Part shown: piece by piece, positions 6,004-17,516 of the stretch
Layout: each line of letters opens with the position of its first letter
Numbering within the stretch: the stretch's first letter is position 1
DNA from: an uncultured archaeon
Lineage (GTDB): Archaea > Asgardarchaeota > Lokiarchaeia > Sigyniarchaeales > SOKP01
Direction: 5' to 3'
DNA: 64,000 nt
NCBI GenBank assembly: GCA_964508365.1
Contig: CAZDTP010000009.1
Span: 865-64,864 of the forward strand
The notes under the pieces: generated by a model
What the model saw: only the letters and a program-made list of their open reading frames with translations
Database searches by the model: none
What the model was told of the DNA's origin: nothing
Position numbers and translations under genes: made by a program

Positions 6004-6552
6004 TTATTCCATACTTTCGGTGGTAGATTTATATATTTTTAAAGTTAATTTGGAAAATACATCATCTACTTTGGTGCCATTTTTCGCACTTGTTTCTAGA
6101 TATTCGCTTGCGGAAACTTGTTGTTGGATGTGACCAACTTCATCTAAATTAATTGTTCTATTTTCTGAGGTCAAGAGATCTAGCTTGTTTCCAACTAGTA
6201 TATTTGGAACGATTCCGATTTTATCTTCCACTTCTTCTTTCCAAGTTAATATGCTATCTAGAGTGTCTTTCCTCGTCAAATCGAACGCATAAACTATTCC
6301 TCTCGCACCTTTATAGAAAGCGTATCGAACCCATTTAAAACGAGGTTGACCTGCTAAGTCCCAGACTTGTAAGGTAATCAAATTTTCAATTTCGGGAAAT
6401 TTAATATATTTTACAAAAAAATTAGAACCAATTGTTCTTTGGGCATCTGGTACAAATCTCCTTTTTAAGTATTGGTTAAGAATCGTAGTTTTTCCTACTT
6501 CCGAATCTCCTACAATACAGATTTTGAAAAAGTATTTGTTTGACCCTACCAT
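6004..6552 (-). CDS. Rab/Ras-like small GTPase
   Basis: G1 GDSEVGKTT, G2 QRTIG, G3 WDLAGQ, G4 GNKLDL, G5 ETSAK. YKGARG resembles the Rab YYRGAxG element. There is no C-terminal Cys prenylation motif (the protein ends ...KSTTESME). Confidence 0.85.
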   Translation of the reverse strand: MVGSNKYFFKICIVGDSEVGKTTILNQYLKRRFVPDAQRTIGSNFFVKYIKFPEIENLITLQVWDLAGQPRFKWVRYAFYKGARGIVYAFDLTRKDTLDSILTWKEEVEDKIGIVPNILVGNKLDLLTSENRTINLDEVGHIQQQVSASEYLETSAKNGTKVDDVFSKLTLKIYKSTTESME

Positions 6553-6747: not shown

Positions 6748-7980
6748 ATGAGTAAAAATTTAAAGGATTTAATAGATCAAGCTGAAGATGAAGAAAAAAC
6801 ACATGCTCAATTAGAAAAAACGATTGAAAGTCTAGAACTGAAGATAGCAAAGTTAGAAACGAAGTTAAAAGATAAAAAGGCATTTTCCGAACAAAAATAT
6901 CTAAAACCTAAAATGGAAAATCTTGAATCCGATGAGATAAATATTTTAAAGGATTTAGTTAGTTCACAAAAACAGGAGCTAGCTCAAAACCAACAGGAGA
7001 ATGAGGCTCTTCAGCAAAATATTGAAAATTATAAGCAGGAATTAAAAAACATTAAAGACAGTCAAAATGATTCTGTAAAAGATCAAATAATAGTGAAAAC
7101 TCAAAATTCTCTTAATAATTTGATCGAAGATTATGGGAGATTGGAAAATACGAATATATCCCTGAAAGAAGAAATTTCCAAGATAGAAAACGAAAAAAAG
7201 CTACTTTTAGAAAATACCAAGAAGATTCAAACTGAAAGTTTCAATGTAGAGCAATTTGAGAGAGAATTAAAGAATTTAAAAAAGCAGCTAAATGATTTGG
7301 AGAGAGAGAAAAAATTACTTGAAGAAATTAATTTTACTTTTCGTAATAAAGAAATTTCTGTCGAAGAATTAGAGAAGACAATAGAGGTTTTAAAAAGCAA
7401 TAATTTCGAATTAAAAAAAGAAAATCAAAAATTATCTAAAATAATAGAGACCGTTAAAGCGGAAAACTCTCGTTTAGCGAAATTTGAGGAGAAAGTTATT
7501 TATTTAGAGGATAAAATTATCGCTCTTCAGAGAGAAAATGAAAACTTAAAGGAAAAAGATGCTATACTTCTTGCAAAAACGATTAACATTATGGAAAAAG
7601 AAAGCAGAGAACATCTAGAATTTGCAGATGATTTAGAAACTAGTGATAAGGATTTGAAAAAAAAAGAAGATCAAATATTTGAGAAATCAATAGAAGTTGT
7701 ACAAAGTGCAGAGCCTCAATCAAGAACCGGTATAGGTTTTACGACAACTGAAAATATCGATCAGATGCCAAAATCAGCGGAACCTGAAGTTTTAAGTTTT
7801 GAAGAAGGCGTTCCAACCGAAACTAATGAAGAAACTGGTTATCGTAAAAAAATCTGTCCGAATTGTGGAAATACAAATAAAGCCCAAATACGTGAAATTG
7901 ATGATAAAACTCGAGAAATTTTTCCAGGCTTTTATTCGAAAAAATATAAGTGTGGACAATGTGCTACAGAGTGGCGATAA
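6748..7980 (+). CDS. long coiled-coil protein with C-terminal zinc ribbon
   Basis: 410 aa. About 300 aa are K/E/L/N-rich heptad-like sequence (e.g. LEKTIESLELKIAKLETKLKDKK). The C-terminus has CPNCGNT...x28...CGQCATEW. Confidence 0.6.
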   Translation: MSKNLKDLIDQAEDEEKTHAQLEKTIESLELKIAKLETKLKDKKAFSEQKYLKPKMENLESDEINILKDLVSSQKQELAQNQQENEALQQNIENYKQELKNIKDSQNDSVKDQIIVKTQNSLNNLIEDYGRLENTNISLKEEISKIENEKKLLLENTKKIQTESFNVEQFERELKNLKKQLNDLEREKKLLEEINFTFRNKEISVEELEKTIEVLKSNNFELKKENQKLSKIIETVKAENSRLAKFEEKVIYLEDKIIALQRENENLKEKDAILLAKTINIMEKESREHLEFADDLETSDKDLKKKEDQIFEKSIEVVQSAEPQSRTGIGFTTTENIDQMPKSAEPEVLSFEEGVPTETNEETGYRKKICPNCGNTNKAQIREIDDKTREIFPGFYSKKYKCGQCATEWR

Positions 7981-10989: not shown

Positions 10990-11886
10990 ATGTCATTATT
11001 CGAAATACTTCCCGCTTTAGTTGGTTATATCATGTGTGGATTGGTAATTATTCACGCAATATTTGATGCACGCGAAAACCGCGTACAACGATTATTAATG
11101 TTAGTAACTTTATTCGCTTTTGGATTCTTGTTGGAATTTAATGGAGTTGTTTCTGGGAATTATGTATACGCCTCGGAAGCCATCATGATTTTAGGGGTTA
11201 TTCCCTTATCAGTTACTTTTGCTTGGGTTGGGATCATCTATAGTGCTATGATAATTGGAGACCGTTTAAAGCTTTCTTTATGGTTACGAATACTTACCAC
11301 TACCTTAATAACCCTTAGTCTAGATTGGGGTATGGACCCAATTGCTGTTGAATTCGGAGCGTGGACATGGATGTATTCAGGTGGAGATTATTTTGGCATT
11401 CCCGGGTTTAATTTTATTGGTTGGTTTTTCATTCCAATCGCTTATTTAATCCCATATGGGTTAAATCGGAATAAAGTGAGCAAGAAATTTCAATTATTAA
11501 CTATTAATAAAATAGATGAAAACAACTCCTTAGGGCGAAAATTATATACTTGCTTGGTGGTAGTCCCGATAGCAATGGGAATCTTACTCGTTGTAGGAAT
11601 TATTTGTAGAATAGAATTTATATATGACTTGCATTGGATAATTCTATTGATTTGGATGCTTTTTACCGTCGTATTTACTGCAGGAATGATCTTATGGAAG
11701 CATGTAAACCTAAAATATTCCAAATGGTTTGATTTAATCCCTCCAACGATTCTATTATTTATCGCTTATTTCTACTTGACTTATAGCATCGCTCTAGGTT
11801 TTTTCAATTTGAGTTTACTTATGTTTTTCACGACGATTCCCTTACTGCTGGCATTTATTTTCACGCTAAGAAAGAAACGGAATTAA
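10990..11886 (+). CDS. DUF422 / CruF-like family membrane protein, copy 2
   Basis: 298 aa, collinear with copy 1 over the full length (e.g. VIHAxxDAxxNRVQRxLML, LSLDWGMDPIAVE, FTLxKKR at the end). Confidence 0.5.
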   Translation: MSLFEILPALVGYIMCGLVIIHAIFDARENRVQRLLMLVTLFAFGFLLEFNGVVSGNYVYASEAIMILGVIPLSVTFAWVGIIYSAMIIGDRLKLSLWLRILTTTLITLSLDWGMDPIAVEFGAWTWMYSGGDYFGIPGFNFIGWFFIPIAYLIPYGLNRNKVSKKFQLLTINKIDENNSLGRKLYTCLVVVPIAMGILLVVGIICRIEFIYDLHWIILLIWMLFTVVFTAGMILWKHVNLKYSKWFDLIPPTILLFIAYFYLTYSIALGFFNLSLLMFFTTIPLLLAFIFTLRKKRN

Positions 11887-11904
11887 TGAGTGATAATTCT
11901 ATAA

Positions 11905-11913
11905 TTTTTTTTT
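11905..11913 (+). terminator. T9 tract downstream of copy 2 (candidate oligo-T terminator)
   Basis: Nine consecutive T lie 19 nt after the TAA at 11884-11886. Confidence 0.35.
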
Positions 11914-11973
11914 ATGAAGTGTTTTAATATTATTATTATCGATTAATTTTAAGCTAAAAATGGTGAAAATATC

Positions 11974-12534
11974 TTGGAACTTTTTCCCGCATTTGAGATT
12001 GGATTGTTAAACGGTTGGATTTTTATGGTAATATTTTTCTTATTTTATGGTATATTTTTAAAAACTTGTCCAAAAGAAGTGATTACTAGACTTTACGATA
12101 ATGAGGGATGGACAAAATCACAATACATTTTAACAAAATTAGGAAAATTATGTGGTTTAATTCATATAATCCTTGTAATTTTTACGCCATTAAACATAGT
12201 ATCTATCGAATTTATGATTGGAATCATTATTTATTTAATAGGAACAATAGGATTCGTTATTGCTGTTATAAATTTTAAGAAGGTACCATTAGGTCAGCCA
12301 ATTACTTTAGGAGTGTATAAAATCTCACGAAATCCTCAGGTCTTAACATTATTTCTCGTTAGTTTTGGGACTTCTTTAATGATAGCTTCTTGGATAGCAG
12401 TAATAATTGTAGTTATTTCCATAATCTTCTTTCATTTTAGAATTTTAGGTGAAGAAAAAAGACTTATTGAACAATATGGTGATTCTTATTTAGAGTATAA
12501 GAAAAAGGTGCCAAGATATTTTTTATTTATTTAA
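11974..12534 (+). CDS. ICMT-family membrane methyltransferase
   Basis: 186 aa, hydrophobic. YKISRNPQVLTLFL and EEKRLIEQYGDSYLEYKKKVPRYF match the family's C-terminal signature. Confidence 0.6.
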   Translation: MELFPAFEIGLLNGWIFMVIFFLFYGIFLKTCPKEVITRLYDNEGWTKSQYILTKLGKLCGLIHIILVIFTPLNIVSIEFMIGIIIYLIGTIGFVIAVINFKKVPLGQPITLGVYKISRNPQVLTLFLVSFGTSLMIASWIAVIIVVISIIFFHFRILGEEKRLIEQYGDSYLEYKKKVPRYFLFI

Positions 12535-12609
12535 ATTAAAGAAAAATTCTAATTTAATACACTAAAGTCTGGAAACGACTAAAAATTAATAAAAAGAAAA
12601 AAAATAAAA

Positions 12610-13095
12610 TTATCGAGGAATCCATTTTGGTACTTTTTCCTTGTATTCTAAATATTTTTGTCCAAATAATTCTTCTAGTTTTTTTCCTTCAAAGGTAGCC
12701 AATTTATCGTAAATGACAATTATTATAATCCATATCGCTATACTAATCAAGGAAATCGATAGAAATATGCACGCAAGATAAATTAAGAGTACACCAAAAT
12801 ACATCGGATTTCTTACATGCCCAAATAGTCCGTCCGTTATGAGGTCGTCCTTATTTTCTGGGTGTTTAAATAAAATGGTGGTCGAAGTGCGAATAAAAGC
12901 GAAAGCTACAGTGATAAAAATAATGAATAAGATAAGTCTAACTATCCAAGGAAAAAAACTATTCATTACAGTTGAAAACGAGAAAACAAGTGAATCTAGA
13001 AGCCAAACTGTGATAAAAACAATAACAGAAAATCCTTGTATTAGATGAGAATGTAGTGCCTCGATTCCGAACCTATTTTCATAATTATGGCTCAT
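12610..13095 (-). CDS. ICMT-family membrane methyltransferase
   Basis: 161 aa. GHVRNPMYFGVLLIY and EGKKLEELFGQKYLEYKEKVPKWIP match the family signature. Confidence 0.65.
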   Translation of the reverse strand: MSHNYENRFGIEALHSHLIQGFSVIVFITVWLLDSLVFSFSTVMNSFFPWIVRLILFIIFITVAFAFIRTSTTILFKHPENKDDLITDGLFGHVRNPMYFGVLLIYLACIFLSISLISIAIWIIIIVIYDKLATFEGKKLEELFGQKYLEYKEKVPKWIPR

Positions 13096-13329
13096 TTTTA
13101 ATCAACTCAAGTAGTTTGGTTATTACTATATAATGACAAACAATTAATTTATTGATTATTAAATAATATTAACAATTAAATGTTAATTTATATTACAAAA
13201 ATTAGTCACGCCTAATAAAAATTTTCTATAGACCAGTTATTGCTAAAATTATCTAAAATCATAAGGAAGTGAATATTTATCGGATATGTTAAATATATTG
13301 TTAACCAAGTAAGAAAACCAAGGGGAATA

Positions 13330-13914
13330 TTGGGCAAAATGATCGCAAGGAAGATGAACATTTCGCACGCTTCGTTAGCAGAGTGGGGATTATCTCACAT
13401 AAAATTAAGGAAAGATATGATAATTTTAGACGTTGGATGTGGAGGGGGAGCTAATATTAACCATTTTGCGCAAATTACGACAGGAGGGAGGGTGTTCGGA
13501 ATTGATTATTCACCCACTTCAGTGAAAATTAGTAAAGAAGTCAATAAAAAATACATTGTAGAGGGAGTTGTTGAGATTAGCGAGAGCTCAGTATCAAATC
13601 TTCCGTTTGAGGACAACACCTTCGATGTAGTTTCAGGGTTTGAAGCTTATTATTTTTGGCCAGACTTAATCAACGATTTGAAAGAGATATATCGCGTTTT
13701 GAAAATCAATGGGGAATTACTATTAGTAAACGAGGCTTACAAATGCGAAAATAAAGAAGTAAGGAAAGTAGTAGAGAAGTGGGCGAAACTCGGAAGCTTT
13801 AAACTTCATTCACCTAAGGAGTATAGAGAATTTTTAACGGAAGCTGGATTTTCTGAAATTGATATATACGAACAAAAAGAAAAGGGTTGGATTACTGCTA
13901 TCGCTATAAAATAA
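13330..13914 (+). CDS. class I SAM-dependent methyltransferase
   Basis: Motif I is ILDVGCGGGAN, followed by acidic loop FGIDYS and motif post-II SGFEAYYFWPD. The start is TTG 13330 or ATG 13339. Confidence 0.75.
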   Translation: MGKMIARKMNISHASLAEWGLSHIKLRKDMIILDVGCGGGANINHFAQITTGGRVFGIDYSPTSVKISKEVNKKYIVEGVVEISESSVSNLPFEDNTFDVVSGFEAYYFWPDLINDLKEIYRVLKINGELLLVNEAYKCENKEVRKVVEKWAKLGSFKLHSPKEYREFLTEAGFSEIDIYEQKEKGWITAIAIK

Positions 13915-13980: not shown

Positions 13981-14835
13981 TCATCCTTTTTCAGTCATCT
14001 GGAGGTTTTTCGCTTCAATTTTATCTTTTTCTTCTCGAGTAAGTTCTTCAATTCTTTCTTTTCTAAAAACCATAATAAATTGGTGTACAATACTCGGGAT
14101 CCATGAATAATTGATACCGTAAAGATGTAATTTCTTATTAACATCGTACCAAATTATCTCTCCTTTTAGGACATAACCGATTTGACTTAAGATGCGGGCA
14201 ATATCAGCGTTTAAAAGATGGTAATGTCCTTCAGTATACATGTTTCCTATAAAAACAGCACAGTAATGCCCCGGTTTTAAAGCCTTAAAGCATTCGCTGA
14301 AAGTATTCTTTATTAAAAGTTCCCAATCATGTTTTTTTTGCTGTGAATCTTGAGAGTCAGGGATAAAACGAGTTAATTTTGATTTATCAGAATAGACTCC
14401 TTTCGATTCTTCTCCAACTTTTTTGTACGTGCCCTTCGATTTCTCAATAGTGTCCATCTTCCAAAATGGAACATCGGTCAATATAAAATCTACCTGAAAG
14501 TTTGGATCTTCACTAAAATCATGAAGAATTTCACGAGAATCACCCTTAATAACCTTTTGAGGCGGGATAGATTCAATTTTGCAGATTTTGTGATAAGTAT
14601 CTATCCATTCTTGATTGATTTCAATCCCAATGCCGTTACGATTGCTTAAATTGCATGCGATCAATGTCCCTCCGACACCACAGAATGGATCAAGAATTAG
14701 GTCCCCCTCTTTAGTAAAAATCTTAATCAACTTTTCACATAATTCAGGCGGTTTTTGCCCTCCATGTTTATTTCTTAAATTTAATTGAAAACTCGGAGGA
14801 TATCCTTTTGGAATTACTGATTTTGTTGAAAACAC
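13981..14835 (-). CDS. N6-adenine/N4-cytosine DNA methyltransferase-like protein with permuted motif order
   Basis: HGGQKPPELCEKLIKIFTKEGDLILDPFCGVGGTLIA (SAM-binding motif I region, as in PF01555-type enzymes) precedes DFILTDVPFW (a DPPY-like motif IV). GTG start. The frame stays open 46 codons further upstream (to 14973) without an ATG, GTG or TTG. Confidence 0.6.
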   Translation of the reverse strand: MFSTKSVIPKGYPPSFQLNLRNKHGGQKPPELCEKLIKIFTKEGDLILDPFCGVGGTLIACNLSNRNGIGIEINQEWIDTYHKICKIESIPPQKVIKGDSREILHDFSEDPNFQVDFILTDVPFWKMDTIEKSKGTYKKVGEESKGVYSDKSKLTRFIPDSQDSQQKKHDWELLIKNTFSECFKALKPGHYCAVFIGNMYTEGHYHLLNADIARILSQIGYVLKGEIIWYDVNKKLHLYGINYSWIPSIVHQFIMVFRKERIEELTREEKDKIEAKNLQMTEKG

Positions 14836-15147: not shown

Positions 15148-15930
15148 TTGAAATTTTATAGTCTTGATGAAAAAGGAAATTTAATCGATCTTAGTAAATT
15201 AGATTTTGATGACCATGATGTATATCTTATTGATGACATCGAGAAAAACACATTATACATCTGGGTGGGGCTTAAAGTTCCCCAATATAAAAAAGACCTC
15301 ACAGCAGCTTGGGCTAGGAGATTTGATAAAGATCGCGGAGGTGCGTGCAAGATATTAATAATGATCCAAAAGCGGGAATATGGATCATTTTTATCGATGA
15401 TGGATCAGTTAAAAAAGGGATTAATACCCGGTAAATCAACTGAACGCAGACCCGAGCTGGTATTATTAGCACCTAAAGAAGTGGCTTCATCCAGTTCAGA
15501 GATGATTACTCCAGAGACTAAAACCCCAGAGATTAAAGAGGAAGCTGCTGAAGCAGGGGTGTTTGCATGGTTAACGCAACTAAAAAAACACAGAGCAGTT
15601 GTTACAGAAAGCGAAGAAGCTGAAGCTAAGGAACCTACAGAAAAAGATGTGGTGACCATAGATGATGAAGAAGTTGGTCTAGAATCTCAAATCAGAGAAG
15701 CTGCTTATTATCTCTCATTAAAAAAATATTCATATAACGATTTATGCTGGCTATTAGCTGAATCTATTCAAAAAGTAAGACTTGAAATGCCTTCGCTTGA
15801 AGATATTCGTAAAAAGGCAGAGGAAGTGTATAATTCATCTAGCACCTATGATGAGTTGTGTTGGTTGAATGCTCAAATGGACATTCTGATTGAACAACAA
15901 TATCTGGAAAAAAAGAAAAAATATAATTAG
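15148..15930 (+). CDS. gelsolin-like domain protein with acidic linker and C-terminal Y-x-[DE]-L-C-W-L repeats
   Basis: Residues 1-95 (15148-15432) line up by eye with gelsolin repeat landmarks. DVYLIDD corresponds to GDAYVIL. LYIWVGLKVPQYKKDLTAAWARRFD corresponds to LHYWLGxxxSQDExxAAAxxxxxLD. RGGACKILIMIQKREYGSFLSMM corresponds to xGRAVQHREVQGxESxxFLGYF. TTG start. Confidence 0.45.
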   Translation: MKFYSLDEKGNLIDLSKLDFDDHDVYLIDDIEKNTLYIWVGLKVPQYKKDLTAAWARRFDKDRGGACKILIMIQKREYGSFLSMMDQLKKGLIPGKSTERRPELVLLAPKEVASSSSEMITPETKTPEIKEEAAEAGVFAWLTQLKKHRAVVTESEEAEAKEPTEKDVVTIDDEEVGLESQIREAAYYLSLKKYSYNDLCWLLAESIQKVRLEMPSLEDIRKKAEEVYNSSSTYDELCWLNAQMDILIEQQYLEKKKKYN

Positions 15931-15989: not shown

Positions 15990-16334
15990 CTAAGCTTTAA
16001 CCATTATTAGCATCATTTTAAATCGCTCCAAAGCGTTAAGAGCATGGGGTTCATTAGCAGGCATCGTCATTATTTGCCCTTTATCTAAAACATAAGGTTT
16101 TTTAGAAATTATAATTTCTGCTTTACCATCGAAAATGTAAACTAACGCATCAAACGGAGTTGTATGCTCACTTAAACCCTCACCTTTATCAAAAGAAAAC
16201 AATGTTACTGTGCCTATTTTTTTGTTCATCAACATTCTACTAACAACAGAGCCTTCTTGATAATCAAGTAAGTTTTCTAAATCTAAAATTTCAGGATTTT
16301 CTTTATTATGACTAGATATACTCAAATATTTCAC
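15990..16334 (-). CDS. cupin-domain protein
   Basis: 114 aa. GEGLSEHTTPFDALVYIFDGKAEI and PANEPHALNA correspond to the two cupin motifs. Confidence 0.7.
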   Translation of the reverse strand: MKYLSISSHNKENPEILDLENLLDYQEGSVVSRMLMNKKIGTVTLFSFDKGEGLSEHTTPFDALVYIFDGKAEIIISKKPYVLDKGQIMTMPANEPHALNALERFKMMLIMVKA

Positions 16335-16547: not shown

Positions 16548-17516
16548 ATGATGACAACAGAGAAAAAGATGCCTTCTAATTCAGAAGCTCATAAAATTTA
16601 TACTGAATTTGCTAGAGAAAGGAAGATCATTTTGCATCATGGAGATTCACTAAAATTCTTGAAAACTGTGCCTAATAATAGTATAAATTTAATAGTGACC
16701 TCACCTCCTTATAACATTGGCAAAGATTACGAGGAAAAAGCAACATTAGACGCATATTTGAAAAATCAAGAAATTATCATTAGACATCTTCAGGATAAAC
16801 TTAAAAGTGAAGGAAGTGTTTGTTGGGAAGTCGGAAATTATGTGGATAACGGTGAAATTTATCCTTTAGATATCTTTTTTTACGATATTTTCAAAAAAAT
16901 AGGTATGAAATTGAGGAATAGAATTGTATGGCATTTTGGACATGGATTACATTGTAAGAATCGATTTTCTGGAAGGTATGAGACAATTCTATGGTTTACA
17001 AAAACAGATAATTATGTTTTCAATTTAGATTCGATAAGAGTACCAGCTAAATATCCAGGGAAACGCGCATATAAGGGACCAAATAAGGGTAAACTTTCAG
17101 GAAACCCTTTAGGAAAAAATCCTTCAGATGTCTGGAAAATATTAGAAGATGATTGGATGACTGCTTTCTGGGAGTTTCCAAACGTTAAATCTAACCATCC
17201 AGAAAAAACTATTCATCCTTGCCAATTTCCAATAGAATTAGTAGAAAGATGTGTTCTTGCTCTCACTAATAGAGGAGATTATATTTTAGATCCTTTTTGT
17301 GGTGTAGGAACGACCTTAGTTGCTGGATTAAAGCATTCTCGAAAGGTTATTGGTGTAGATAAAGAATTGGAATATATTAAATTAGCGAGGCAAAGAATTA
17401 CACAATTTTTTGATGGTAATTTAAAAGTTAGACCTTTAGGAAAAAAAGTCTATCAACCTACAGGGCGAGAAAAAGTATCGAAATTTCCTCTTGAATGGAA
17501 AAATTATCAGAGATGA
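16548..17516 (+). CDS. beta-class N4-cytosine/N6-adenine DNA methyltransferase
   Basis: Motif IV is NLIVTSPPYN near the N-terminus. HPCQFPIELVERCVLALTNRGDYILDPFCGVGTTLVAG, followed by VIGVDKELEYIKLARQRI, lies near the C-terminus. This is the classic PF01555 organisation. Confidence 0.85.
   Translation: MMTTEKKMPSNSEAHKIYTEFARERKIILHHGDSLKFLKTVPNNSINLIVTSPPYNIGKDYEEKATLDAYLKNQEIIIRHLQDKLKSEGSVCWEVGNYVDNGEIYPLDIFFYDIFKKIGMKLRNRIVWHFGHGLHCKNRFSGRYETILWFTKTDNYVFNLDSIRVPAKYPGKRAYKGPNKGKLSGNPLGKNPSDVWKILEDDWMTAFWEFPNVKSNHPEKTIHPCQFPIELVERCVLALTNRGDYILDPFCGVGTTLVAGLKHSRKVIGVDKELEYIKLARQRITQFFDGNLKVRPLGKKVYQPTGREKVSKFPLEWKNYQR

What the first reader, a model, noticed from the sequence alone, without database searches (positions are those of the whole stretch)
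15148..15930. Gelsolin-like domain protein with a novel C-terminal repeat pair
The first ~95 aa align by eye with the gelsolin/villin repeat. FYSLDEKGNLIDL corresponds to IWRVEkfxLVPV. DVYLIDD corresponds to GDAYVIL. LYIWVGLKVPQYKKDLTAAWARRFD corresponds to LHYWLGxxxSQDExxAAAxxxxQLD. RGGACKILIMIQKREYGSFLSMM corresponds to NGRAVQHREVQGxESxxFLGYF. Gelsolin-domain proteins are eukaryotic actin regulators and have also been described in Asgard archaea. After an acidic linker come two copies of Y-x-[DE]-L-C-W-L (YNDLCWLLAE and YDELCWLNAQ, 15727-15867) that I cannot assign. The gene lies between two DNA methyltransferase genes, an unexpected context.
Basis: partly seen in the sequence, partly recalled or inferred. 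Interest (0 to 1): 0.6.

Follow-up and report, generated by a model that had tools for sequence, protein, structure and literature searches.

The report
Asgard gelsolin with portable helical domain

Summary
The ORF (15148-15930, +, 260 aa) is real and the gelsolin call is correct. It matches the solved Lokiarchaeota gelsolin 2DGel (phmmer E 5.9e-14), and its AlphaFold model finds only gelsolin-family structures. The window is from a Loki-type Asgard archaeon. The layout, a gelsolin domain, an acidic linker and a C-terminal helical domain, is the published "1DGelX/GelX" class. Thor 1DGelX severs actin without calcium, and L. ossiferum GelX co-precipitates with Lokiactin. So this is a new member of a known kind. 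I could not align it directly to the published accessions. The Y-x-x-L-C-W repeat pair is real (hhalign half against half: 98%, E 4e-14). With a diverse alignment the domain folds as a compact four-helix domain (pLDDT 92.8), neither coiled coil nor disordered as the literature says. It has no PDB or viral fold relative, was found only in Asgard genomes, and gives only sub-threshold DUF2934 hits. It also occurs alone, in ~113-aa "motif+X" mini-proteins, and fused to a GNAT, a Zn-ribbon tail and a 1288-aa protein. The two flanking DNA methyltransferases are lineage-specific synteny. The widely conserved neighbours are a small cupin and a coiled-coil/Zn-ribbon protein.

The parts
15148..15930 (+). 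Whole gene: 260-aa GelX-type protein (30.1 kDa, pI 5.0), TTG start
   Evidence: ORF list. There are 478 full-length homologs, and the exact sequence is present in public assemblies.
15148..15432 (+). Gelsolin-homology (GH) domain, aa 1-95: strands 2-6, 12-15, 25-30, 35-40, 68-73 and a long helix 46-62 carrying the invariant T52-A53-A54-W55-A56-R57
   Evidence: phmmer to 7whg_G (Loki 2DGel) E 5.9e-14; villin, Thor 2DGel3 and Heimdall 2DGel also hit. Pfam PF00626 scores 20.4 bits against a cut-off of 21. AF2 pLDDT is about 76-84. The Foldseek top 50 are all gelsolin-family.
15433..15678 (+). Variable acidic linker, aa 96-177 (net charge -9), low-confidence or disordered in the model
   Evidence: Length and sequence vary among orthologs. 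pLDDT is 33-45. Composition.
15445..15465 (+). Conserved RRPELxL segment directly after the GH domain (aa 100-106)
   Evidence: R101, P102, E103, L104 and L106 are invariant in 71 sequences.
15553..15594 (+). Conserved amphipathic linker helix AGVFAWLTQLKKHR (aa 136-149), motif W-L-x-Q-L-x-x-[HYF]-R
   Evidence: Predicted helix 136-147. The motif is present upstream of domain X in 251 of 309 gelsolin+X proteins and in gelsolin-free 'motif+X' mini-proteins.
15679..15903 (+). Domain X, aa 178-252: compact four-helix domain (helices 178-191, 196-212, 217-229, 234-249)
   Evidence: AF2 with 60 diverse sequences gives pLDDT 92.8 and pTM 0.82. It is strongly conserved. There is no PDB or viral fold match and no PDB sequence match.
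15679..15786 (+). Domain X repeat 1 (helical hairpin; I-R-x-A-A-Y-x-L-S ... Y-N-D-L-C-W-L-L-A-E)
   Evidence: Internal duplication supported. Sub-threshold DUF2934 hits fall on its first helix.
15793..15903 (+). Domain X repeat 2 (helical hairpin; I-R-K-K-A-E-E-V-Y ... Y-D-E-L-C-W-L-N-A-Q)
15990..16334 (-). Context, not part of the protein: small Cupin_2 gene, the most widely conserved neighbour of GelX genes. A functional link is unproven.
   Evidence: Pfam PF07883 E 2.6e-08. A homolog lies within 3 kb in 60 of 84 related loci, in two arrangements.
6748..7980 (+). Context, not part of the protein: 410-aa coiled-coil protein ending in a CxxC...CxxC Zn-ribbon. Short homologs are the divergent immediate neighbour of GelX genes in other Asgard genomes.

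Best explanation
The gene encodes a Lokiarchaeial member of the Asgard 1DGelX/GelX class of actin regulators. SHOWN HERE: an N-terminal gelsolin-homology domain; an acidic, variable linker with two conserved short segments (RRPELxL and an amphipathic W-L-x-Q-L-x-x-H-R helix); and a C-terminal 'domain X', a compact four-helix domain made of two duplicated helical hairpins that each carry Y-x-x-L-C-W-x-x-A-E. INFERRED by homology to the crystallised Asgard gelsolin-actin complexes and to human gelsolin G1: the gelsolin domain docks its long helix (aa 46-62) onto the barbed face of Lokiactin, in the cleft between actin subdomains 1 and 3. INFERRED from the alignment: it does so without calcium, because the position aligned with the Glu of the D-E pair in the long helix of Loki 2DGel is a conserved Lys (K48), and the Asp aligned with the 'GD' motif (D24) is not conserved in orthologs. 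That these residues are the calcium ligands comes from my memory of gelsolin G1. INFERRED from published biochemistry on Thor proteins (1DGelX Kd 7.7 uM with robust severing, against 337 uM and no severing for the bare domain ProGel): the C-terminal extension gives a second point of attachment that turns a weak single gelsolin domain into a filament-severing and capping protein. My committed reading is that 'linker helix + domain X' is a portable targeting unit that holds the protein on the Lokiactin filament or a filament-associated structure, playing the part that G2 plays in gelsolin and the headpiece plays in villin. I put the identity as a GelX-type actin regulator at about 0.9, and direct binding of domain X to actin filaments at about 0.4.
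For: Gelsolin domain: phmmer E 5.9e-14 to the Lokiarchaeota 2DGel structure 7whg, plus villin and the Thor and Heimdall 2DGels. The AF2 model has the sheet-plus-long-helix fold, and its Foldseek hits are exclusively gelsolin-family, including 7c2f ProGel with TM 0.73 on the target. Many paralogs pass Pfam PF00626. [quoted passage not shown] MK-D1 has two and Loki GC14_75 three 1DGelXs. L. ossiferum GelX (GH, extensive linker, X) co-immunoprecipitates with Lokiactin. The window protein has 478 full-length homologs, all in Asgard MAGs, including MAGs labelled Thorarchaeota with the same layout. Portable unit: domain X occurs in gelsolin-free proteins. The ~113-aa 'motif+X' ORFs are complete genes in six genomic loci and co-exist with GelX in the same MAGs. 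The linker motif accompanies X in 251 of 309 gelsolin+X proteins.
Against: I could not obtain the sequences of Thor_1DGelX (KXH72031.1) or B35_GelX (UYP44381.1). Equivalence of this domain X to the published one therefore rests on architecture and taxonomy, not on an alignment. For this protein Pfam PF00626 is just below the gathering score (20.4 against 21). Three points count against direct F-actin binding by X. Domain X is acidic (net -5; family median -3; 80% of members negative), as is actin. GFP-1DGelX associated only weakly with filaments in human cells and concentrated near nuclear-envelope/ER-like regions. And no similarity to any known actin-binding fold was found. No experiment on any isolated domain X exists; the authors could not produce it.
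Confidence: 0.45

Rival explanations
1. Same protein class, but domain X does not touch actin. It is an adaptor that docks the gelsolin domain, and other cargo domains, onto a non-actin partner or site, for example the coiled-coil/Zn-ribbon protein encoded next to GelX genes, or a membrane-associated structure. Any extra actin affinity comes from the RRPEL segment or the W-L-x-Q-L helix.
For: A coiled-coil + Zn-ribbon gene is the immediate divergent neighbour of GelX in 37 loci, and the window has a 410-aa relative at 6748-7980. One protein (P0151) fuses domain X to a coiled coil and a Zn-ribbon of that family; it is the only domain X protein hit by the neighbour-family profile (E 1.7e-5, next best 0.06). 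X is acidic. GFP-1DGelX localised to ER/nuclear-envelope-like regions, not filaments. X is fused to unrelated domains (GNAT, a 1288-aa protein).
Against: The P0151 link is weak (19.7 bits, carried mostly by the four-Cys ribbon). Gene adjacency among related MAGs may be inherited synteny. The localisation data come from a heterologous human cell. No interaction data exist.
Confidence: 0.3
2. Same protein class, but domain X is a self-association module. Hairpin-type helical units pair between chains, so the protein acts as a dimer with two gelsolin domains, mimicking 2DGel. This would explain severing and transient bundling.
For: X is itself a covalent pair of hairpins with pseudo-two-fold sequence symmetry, a design that often descends from a homodimer. 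Thor 1DGelX produced short bundles before complete disassembly. I-TASSER predicted a coiled coil.
Against: AF2 predicts a closed, confident monomeric four-helix domain (pLDDT 92.8, pTM 0.82), so no unsatisfied hairpin is evident. P0121 carries two complete X domains in tandem, which is unnecessary if X simply dimerises. The oligomeric state was not testable here.
Confidence: 0.15
3. The gene is functionally tied to the two flanking DNA methyltransferases, as part of a restriction-modification or defence island or a DNA-related process, and is not an actin regulator.
For: It lies between two Type II-like N6/N4 methyltransferase genes, and the arrangement recurs in close relatives.
Against: Methyltransferase adjacency is limited to the closest relatives (20 and 11 of 84 loci) and is absent around more distant orthologs. 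The three genes are on different strands and not in one operon. The GelX protein and the cupin match no defence model. The homologous family is biochemically an actin regulator.
Confidence: 0.03

Closest known systems
Thorarchaeota 1DGelX (KXH72031.1; Akil et al. 2020, PMC7444086) and L. ossiferum B35_GelX (UYP44381.1; bioRxiv 10.1101/2025.11.30.690169)
   Same: Both have a single N-terminal gelsolin-homology domain, a long linker and a helical C-terminal 'domain X' of unknown function, and both are restricted to Asgard archaea. MAGs labelled Thorarchaeota encode clear homologs of the window protein with the same layout.
   Different: I could not align them directly, so orthology against paralogy is open. 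At least three length classes of gelsolin+X exist: about 255-290 aa like this one, a 281-aa type, and 330-490-aa long-linker types with two linker motifs. The literature calls X 'coiled coil' or 'disordered'. Here it is a confident compact four-helix domain with an internal duplication.
Asgard 2DGel and ProGel (PDB 7whg, 7c2g, 7c2h, 7whf, 7c2f)
   Same: The gelsolin domain is homologous: 37% identity over 83 columns to 7whg D1. The fold is the same and the actin-binding helix is presumably the same.
   Different: 2DGel has a second gelsolin domain and is calcium-regulated, and ProGel has nothing after the domain. Here the second gelsolin domain is replaced by linker motifs plus domain X. The Glu of the D-E pair in the 2DGel long helix aligns with a conserved Lys (alignment; for conservation).
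Villin / supervillin / dematin headpiece architecture (gelsolin repeats + flexible linker + small C-terminal helical module that also occurs in non-gelsolin proteins)
   Same: The design logic is shared: a gelsolin-type domain tethered by a flexible linker to a small (~75 aa) all-helical C-terminal module that is also found on other proteins. The gelsolin domain itself hits villin.
   Different: There is no sequence or fold similarity between domain X and the headpiece. No VHP hit appears in Pfam and no headpiece appears among Foldseek hits. X is acidic, whereas the headpiece uses a basic patch (from my own knowledge). This is an analogy only.
Pfam DUF2934 (PF11154, 37-residue family of unknown function)
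   Same: 21 of 60 diverse domain X sequences give weak hits (best E 5.5e-4, 20.0 bits). They fall on helix 1 of repeat 1, and one spans profile positions 2-35.
   Different: All hits are below the gathering score (22 bits), most cover only about 12 residues, and repeat 2 does not hit. DUF2934 has no known function, so even true homology would not assign one.

Membership tests
Gelsolin superfamily (gelsolin repeat, PF00626) | Significant sequence similarity to gelsolin repeats | tested here: met
   phmmer against PDB sequences gives 7whg_G Lokiarchaeota 2DGel E 5.9e-14, villin 9.9e-07 and Thor 2DGel3 6.9e-06. Pfam PF00626 gives E 4.5e-4 at 20.4 bits, 0.6 bit under the gathering score for this protein, but paralogs and orthologs pass it.
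Gelsolin superfamily (gelsolin repeat, PF00626) | Gelsolin/cofilin fold: central beta-sheet packed against a long helix | tested here: met
   The AF2 model has five strands plus helix 46-62, with pLDDT about 76-84. All top 50 Foldseek PDB hits are gelsolin-family domains at probability 1.00.
Gelsolin superfamily (gelsolin repeat, PF00626) | Type II calcium-site residues (Asp of the 'GD' motif and Glu in the long helix) | tested here: inconclusive
   In the HMMER alignment to 7whg, the Glu of the D-E pair in the 2DGel long helix aligns with K48, which is at least 90% conserved. D24 aligns with the 'GD' Asp but is variable in orthologs. The assignment of these residues as calcium ligands comes from my memory of gelsolin G1. 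This suggests no calcium control, as published for Thor 1DGelX, but it was not tested structurally.
Gelsolin superfamily (gelsolin repeat, PF00626) | Binds and regulates actin | not testable with these tools
   The only evidence is by homology: Thor 1DGelX biochemistry and the L. ossiferum GelX co-IP with Lokiactin.
Asgard 1DGelX / GelX class | One gelsolin domain followed by a linker and a C-terminal non-gelsolin 'domain X' | tested here: met
   Domain map.
Asgard 1DGelX / GelX class | Domain X homologous to that of the characterised proteins (KXH72031.1, UYP44381.1) | not testable with these tools
   The accessions were found, but the sequences could not be retrieved. Three protein searches and two cluster look-ups did not surface them.
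Asgard 1DGelX / GelX class | Restricted to Asgard archaea | tested here: met
   The genome scan confirmed 197 loci. The 80 kept are all Asgard MAGs except one 4.3-kb contig binned in a Nanopelagicaceae MAG, which is probably mis-binned.
Asgard 1DGelX / GelX class | Calcium-independent actin severing | not testable with these tools
   This needs biochemistry. It has been published only for the Thor protein.
Villin headpiece (VHP) | Sequence or fold match of the C-terminal module to the headpiece | tested here: not met
   There is no VHP hit in Pfam at E up to 10 for the protein or E up to 1 for 60 family members. No headpiece appears among the Foldseek PDB hits, and the profile search of PDB sequences found nothing.
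DUF2934 (PF11154) | Score at or above the Pfam gathering threshold (22 bits) | tested here: not met
   The best score is 20.0 bits (E 5.5e-4). The window copy scores 12 bits, and the family consensus scores 15.3-18.3 bits. The recurrence in 21 of 60 members keeps distant homology open.
WH2-type actin-binding motif (for the linker helix) | Amphipathic helix followed by L-K-K-[VT]-type motif | not tested
   The window has ...AWLTQLKKHR, but across the family the consensus is W-L-x-Q-L-x-x-[HYF]-R. This is a resemblance by eye only, and no WH2 model was run.

The most novel reading that the evidence does not exclude
Domain X, with its preceding W-L-x-Q-L-x-x-[HYF]-R helix, is an Asgard-specific portable cytoskeleton-targeting module and a functional analogue of the villin headpiece. 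It would deliver different activities to Lokiactin structures: a severing gelsolin domain, a GNAT acetyltransferase, a coiled-coil/Zn-ribbon scaffold and a 1288-aa protein. The ~113-aa 'motif+X' mini-proteins would act as competitors or regulators. That would reveal a layer of Asgard actin-associated proteins beyond profilin and gelsolin, identifiable simply by searching for domain X.
Probability: 0.3. Interest if true: 0.7.

Novelty: new member of a known kind. Interest (0 to 1): 0.4.

Why it matters
[quoted passage not shown] The gene itself adds only another member to the known GelX class. What this follow-up adds concerns the unexplained half of that class. Domain X is predicted to be a confidently folded, internally duplicated four-helix domain with no detectable relative among solved or viral structures. 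It is Asgard-restricted and modular. It also has conserved gene neighbours (a cupin and a coiled-coil/Zn-ribbon protein) and one fusion that suggest partners. Together these turn 'what does domain X do?' into concrete experiments: binding assays with isolated X and with the natural mini-proteins, and pull-downs. They also give a search handle for further Asgard cytoskeleton-associated proteins.

Tried and rejected
1. Linking the protein to the published Thor_1DGelX and B35_GelX. I found the accessions, but three homolog searches, two cluster look-ups and a literature search never surfaced those sequences. The supplements of the PNAS paper are not held.

3. Metal binding by the two conserved Cys. 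I rejected this as an obligate feature because both Cys are replaced by T, V, I, A, H or N in some family members, whereas Trp, Leu, Ala and Glu are better conserved.

4. P0176 (577 aa, 7 stretches) and P0193 (GW/SH3/glucosaminidase protein). These hits from the domain X search are spurious repeat similarities and not domain X.

5. The first full-length AF2 run gave pLDDT about 50 for domain X. This was an alignment-depth problem, not disorder, and was solved with a diverse domain-only alignment.

6. The genome scan with the most diverse alignment failed for lack of conserved columns. I repeated it with a YDELCWL-sharing subset, so the most divergent X domains may be under-sampled.

7. Defence or restriction-modification context. 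PADLOC finds only the two methyltransferases.

8. NCBIfam gave no hit.

Full report
OBSERVATION. The ORF at 15148-15930 (+) is present exactly as described: 260 aa with a TTG start. Its first residues align with residue 1 of all orthologs. The window has 31% G+C. The quoted peptides are all there.

GELSOLIN DOMAIN. Pfam gives Gelsolin PF00626 at E 4.5e-4 and 20.4 bits, just under the 21-bit gathering score. A phmmer search of PDB sequences is decisive. It finds Lokiarchaeota 2DGel (7whg) at E 5.9e-14 over aa 6-86, then villin, Thor 2DGel3 and Heimdall 2DGel. An AlphaFold2 model built on 71 homologs gives the N-terminal 75 residues pLDDT 76-84, with five strands and a long helix at 46-62. Foldseek against the PDB returns only gelsolin-family domains in the top 50: Asgard 2DGel and ProGel, villin, gelsolin G1/G2, severin and CapG.

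In the alignment to 7whg, the Glu of the D-E pair in the 2DGel long helix aligns with K48, which is conserved. The Asp aligned with the 'GD' motif (D24) varies among orthologs. That these positions are the type II calcium ligands rests on my memory of gelsolin G1. I read this as probable loss of calcium control. It is an inference, not a test.

WHAT KIND OF PROTEIN. The whole protein has 478 homologs at E ≤ 0.001. The listed ones are full-length at 54-97% identity, and every named one is a 'hypothetical protein' from Lokiarchaeota/Promethearchaeota, Hermod-, Hod- or Thorarchaeota MAGs. The literature already describes this layout. Akil et al. [quoted passage not shown] Thor 1DGelX binds rabbit actin with Kd 7.7 uM, against 337 uM for ProGel. 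It nucleates at low ratios, sequesters at 1:1, and severs robustly and independently of calcium. [quoted passage not shown] The authors hypothesised an actin side-binding element in the C-terminal extension and could not produce domain X alone. MK-D1 has two 1DGelXs and Loki GC14_75 has three. [quoted passage not shown]

The window protein fits this class. The one gap is that I could not fetch KXH72031.1 or UYP44381.1 (accessions) to align them. MAGs labelled Thorarchaeota do encode the same layout with the same domain X.

THE C-TERMINAL REPEAT PAIR IS DOMAIN X. The last ~80 residues are as conserved as the gelsolin domain, while the linker varies in length and sequence. The two halves are related. 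Smith-Waterman gives 45-46 against 22 +/- 4.7 for shuffles, and family profiles of half 1 and half 2 align with 98.2% probability, E 4.2e-14.

In the full-length model the domain scored poorly (pLDDT about 50). With a diverse domain-only alignment of 60 sequences, AlphaFold2 gives pLDDT 92.8 and pTM 0.82 for a compact four-helix domain, with helices at X-numbering 3-16, 21-37, 42-54 and 59-74. It is therefore a folded domain made of two helical hairpins, neither a coiled coil nor disordered. The best-conserved positions are A11, Y21, L24, C25, A29, E30, L62 and W64. The Cys residues are replaced in some members, so obligate metal binding is unlikely.

No relative was found by Foldseek in the PDB (best E 0.88) or in viral models (best E 0.4), nor by a profile search of PDB sequences. 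Pfam gives recurrent but sub-threshold hits to DUF2934 (21 of 60 members; best 20.0 bits against a 22-bit cut-off). These fall mainly on the first helix of repeat 1. DUF2934 itself has no known function.

DOMAIN X IS PORTABLE. A search of 1.8 billion cluster representatives with domain X alone gave 76 hits. They fall into three groups:
- About 27 clusters with an N-terminal gelsolin domain, of several length classes.
- Many bare X proteins of 83-96 aa.
- Fusions: GNAT acetyltransferase + X (P0131); X + coiled coil + Zn-ribbon (P0151); unknown N-terminal domains + X (P0130, P0172); and a 1288-aa protein ending in two tandem X domains after a Pro-rich linker (P0121).

The conserved linker helix W-L-x-Q-L-x-x-[HYF]-R precedes X in 251 of 309 gelsolin+X proteins. 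It also precedes X in a class of ~113-aa proteins. These are complete ORFs in six genomic loci and co-exist with GelX in the same MAGs. GelX therefore looks like a fusion of a ProGel-type domain with a 'motif+X' unit. A scan of 185,579 species genomes confirmed 197 loci. The 80 kept are all Asgard except one short contig binned into a Nanopelagicaceae MAG, which is 99% identical to the window and almost certainly mis-binned.

CONTEXT. Both flanking genes are Type II-like N6/N4 DNA methyltransferases, but a cupin gene lies between the gelsolin gene and the second one. Across 84 related loci the methyltransferases are adjacent in only 20 and 11, all close relatives. The cupin is adjacent in 60: 24 downstream-convergent as here and 36 upstream-divergent (a few loci are duplicates of one contig). 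In the upstream arrangement a ~158-aa coiled-coil + Zn-ribbon gene sits between the cupin and GelX, divergent from GelX, in 37 loci. The window has a 410-aa coiled-coil protein with the same ribbon at 6748-7980, next to a Ras-family GTPase at 6004-6552. P0151, the X + coiled-coil + Zn-ribbon fusion, is the only X protein matched by the neighbour-family profile (E 1.7e-5). This is a weak Rosetta-stone hint of a functional link. The methyltransferase context is lineage-specific synteny, and neither GelX nor the cupin matches a defence model.

MECHANISM. I put the identity as a GelX-type actin regulator at about 0.9. By homology, the gelsolin domain binds the barbed face of Lokiactin, probably without calcium. 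The published 44-fold affinity gain and the severing activity of Thor 1DGelX over ProGel indicate that the C-terminal extension supplies a second attachment.

My committed reading is that 'linker helix + X' is a targeting unit for the filament or a filament-associated structure, the functional counterpart of G2 or the villin headpiece. Direct F-actin binding by X has a probability of about 0.4. The evidence against it is that X is acidic (net -5; family median -3), that GFP-1DGelX associated weakly with filaments and concentrated near ER/nuclear-envelope-like regions in human cells, and that no known actin-binding fold is detected.

The rivals are X as an adaptor to a non-actin partner such as the Zn-ribbon scaffold (0.3), X as a dimerisation module (0.15), and a methyltransferase-linked role (0.03).

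VERDICT. This is a new member of a known kind. The added value is a clearer picture of the uncharacterised domain X, covering its fold, duplication, modularity, mini-paralogs and conserved neighbours. All of it is computational and testable.

Noticed in passing
window 15990-16334 (-); 60 of 84 related loci (e.g. L029 1289-1615, L027 189-515): A ~110-aa Cupin_2 protein, 62-93% identical across the adjacent loci, is next to GelX genes in two different arrangements: 24 downstream-convergent and 36 upstream-divergent. Adjacency is kept despite rearrangement, at GelX divergence down to about 60% identity. No function is known.
   Followed up: partly
window 6748-7980 (+); L029 1763-2239 (-) and 36 other loci: A family of coiled-coil proteins ending in a conserved CPxCGN...KCGxCGxEW Zn-ribbon. 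Short (~158 aa) members are the immediate divergent neighbour of GelX in 37 loci. The window has a 410-aa member 7 kb upstream. P0151 fuses domain X to a coiled coil plus a Zn-ribbon that matches this family's profile (E 1.7e-5). There is no Pfam family for it.
   Followed up: partly
window 6004-6552 (-); also L004 982-1521: A Ras/Arf-family small GTPase (PF00071, E 1.3e-38) is encoded divergently next to the coiled-coil/Zn-ribbon gene. A similar GTPase lies near the Zn-ribbon homolog in a Hodarchaeota locus. The 2025 preprint reports an Arf GTPase in the Lokiactin co-IP.
   Followed up: no
L074 2890-3231, L077 686-1027, L080/L082/L084 2881-3222, L081 2863-3201: Conserved ~113-aa proteins consist only of an N-terminal E-E-P-E-x-R-I-K-x-W-L-x-Q-L-x-x-[FY]-R motif plus domain X. 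They are complete ORFs that co-exist with full GelX genes in the same MAGs (L027/L081, L041/L082, L049/L084). They could be regulators or competitors of GelX.
   Followed up: partly
P0121 (1288 aa), residues 1133-1288: A large protein with no Pfam or PDB match in its first ~1100 residues ends in a Pro-rich PPTGELPPTE linker and two complete tandem domain X copies.
   Followed up: no
P0131 (217 aa): A GNAT acetyltransferase (PF13302, E 1.4e-19) is fused directly to domain X. This is intriguing if X targets cytoskeletal proteins, but only one cluster was seen.
   Followed up: no
L005 (DATKTW010000146.1, 4257 bp); protein HUW90938.1: A contig 99% identical to this part of the window (methyltransferase, GelX, cupin, methyltransferase) is deposited in a MAG named Candidatus Nanopelagicaceae bacterium. 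It is almost certainly an Asgard contig mis-binned into an actinobacterial MAG.
   Followed up: partly
window 13981-14835 (-) and 16548-17516 (+): These are two N6/N4 Type II-like DNA methyltransferase genes with no recognisable restriction endonuclease between or beside them. The upstream one matches PF01555 in two stretches, with the C-terminal part of the profile (160-218) at its N-terminus, which suggests a permuted motif order.
   Followed up: no
window 10990-13914: Upstream is a cluster of membrane and lipid-type genes: a carotenoid-synthesis-like protein (PF04240), two PEMT/ICMT-like membrane methyltransferases and a class I SAM methyltransferase. Parts of this cluster are syntenic with GelX in related genomes (PEMT homolog in 16 of 84 loci).
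   Followed up: no
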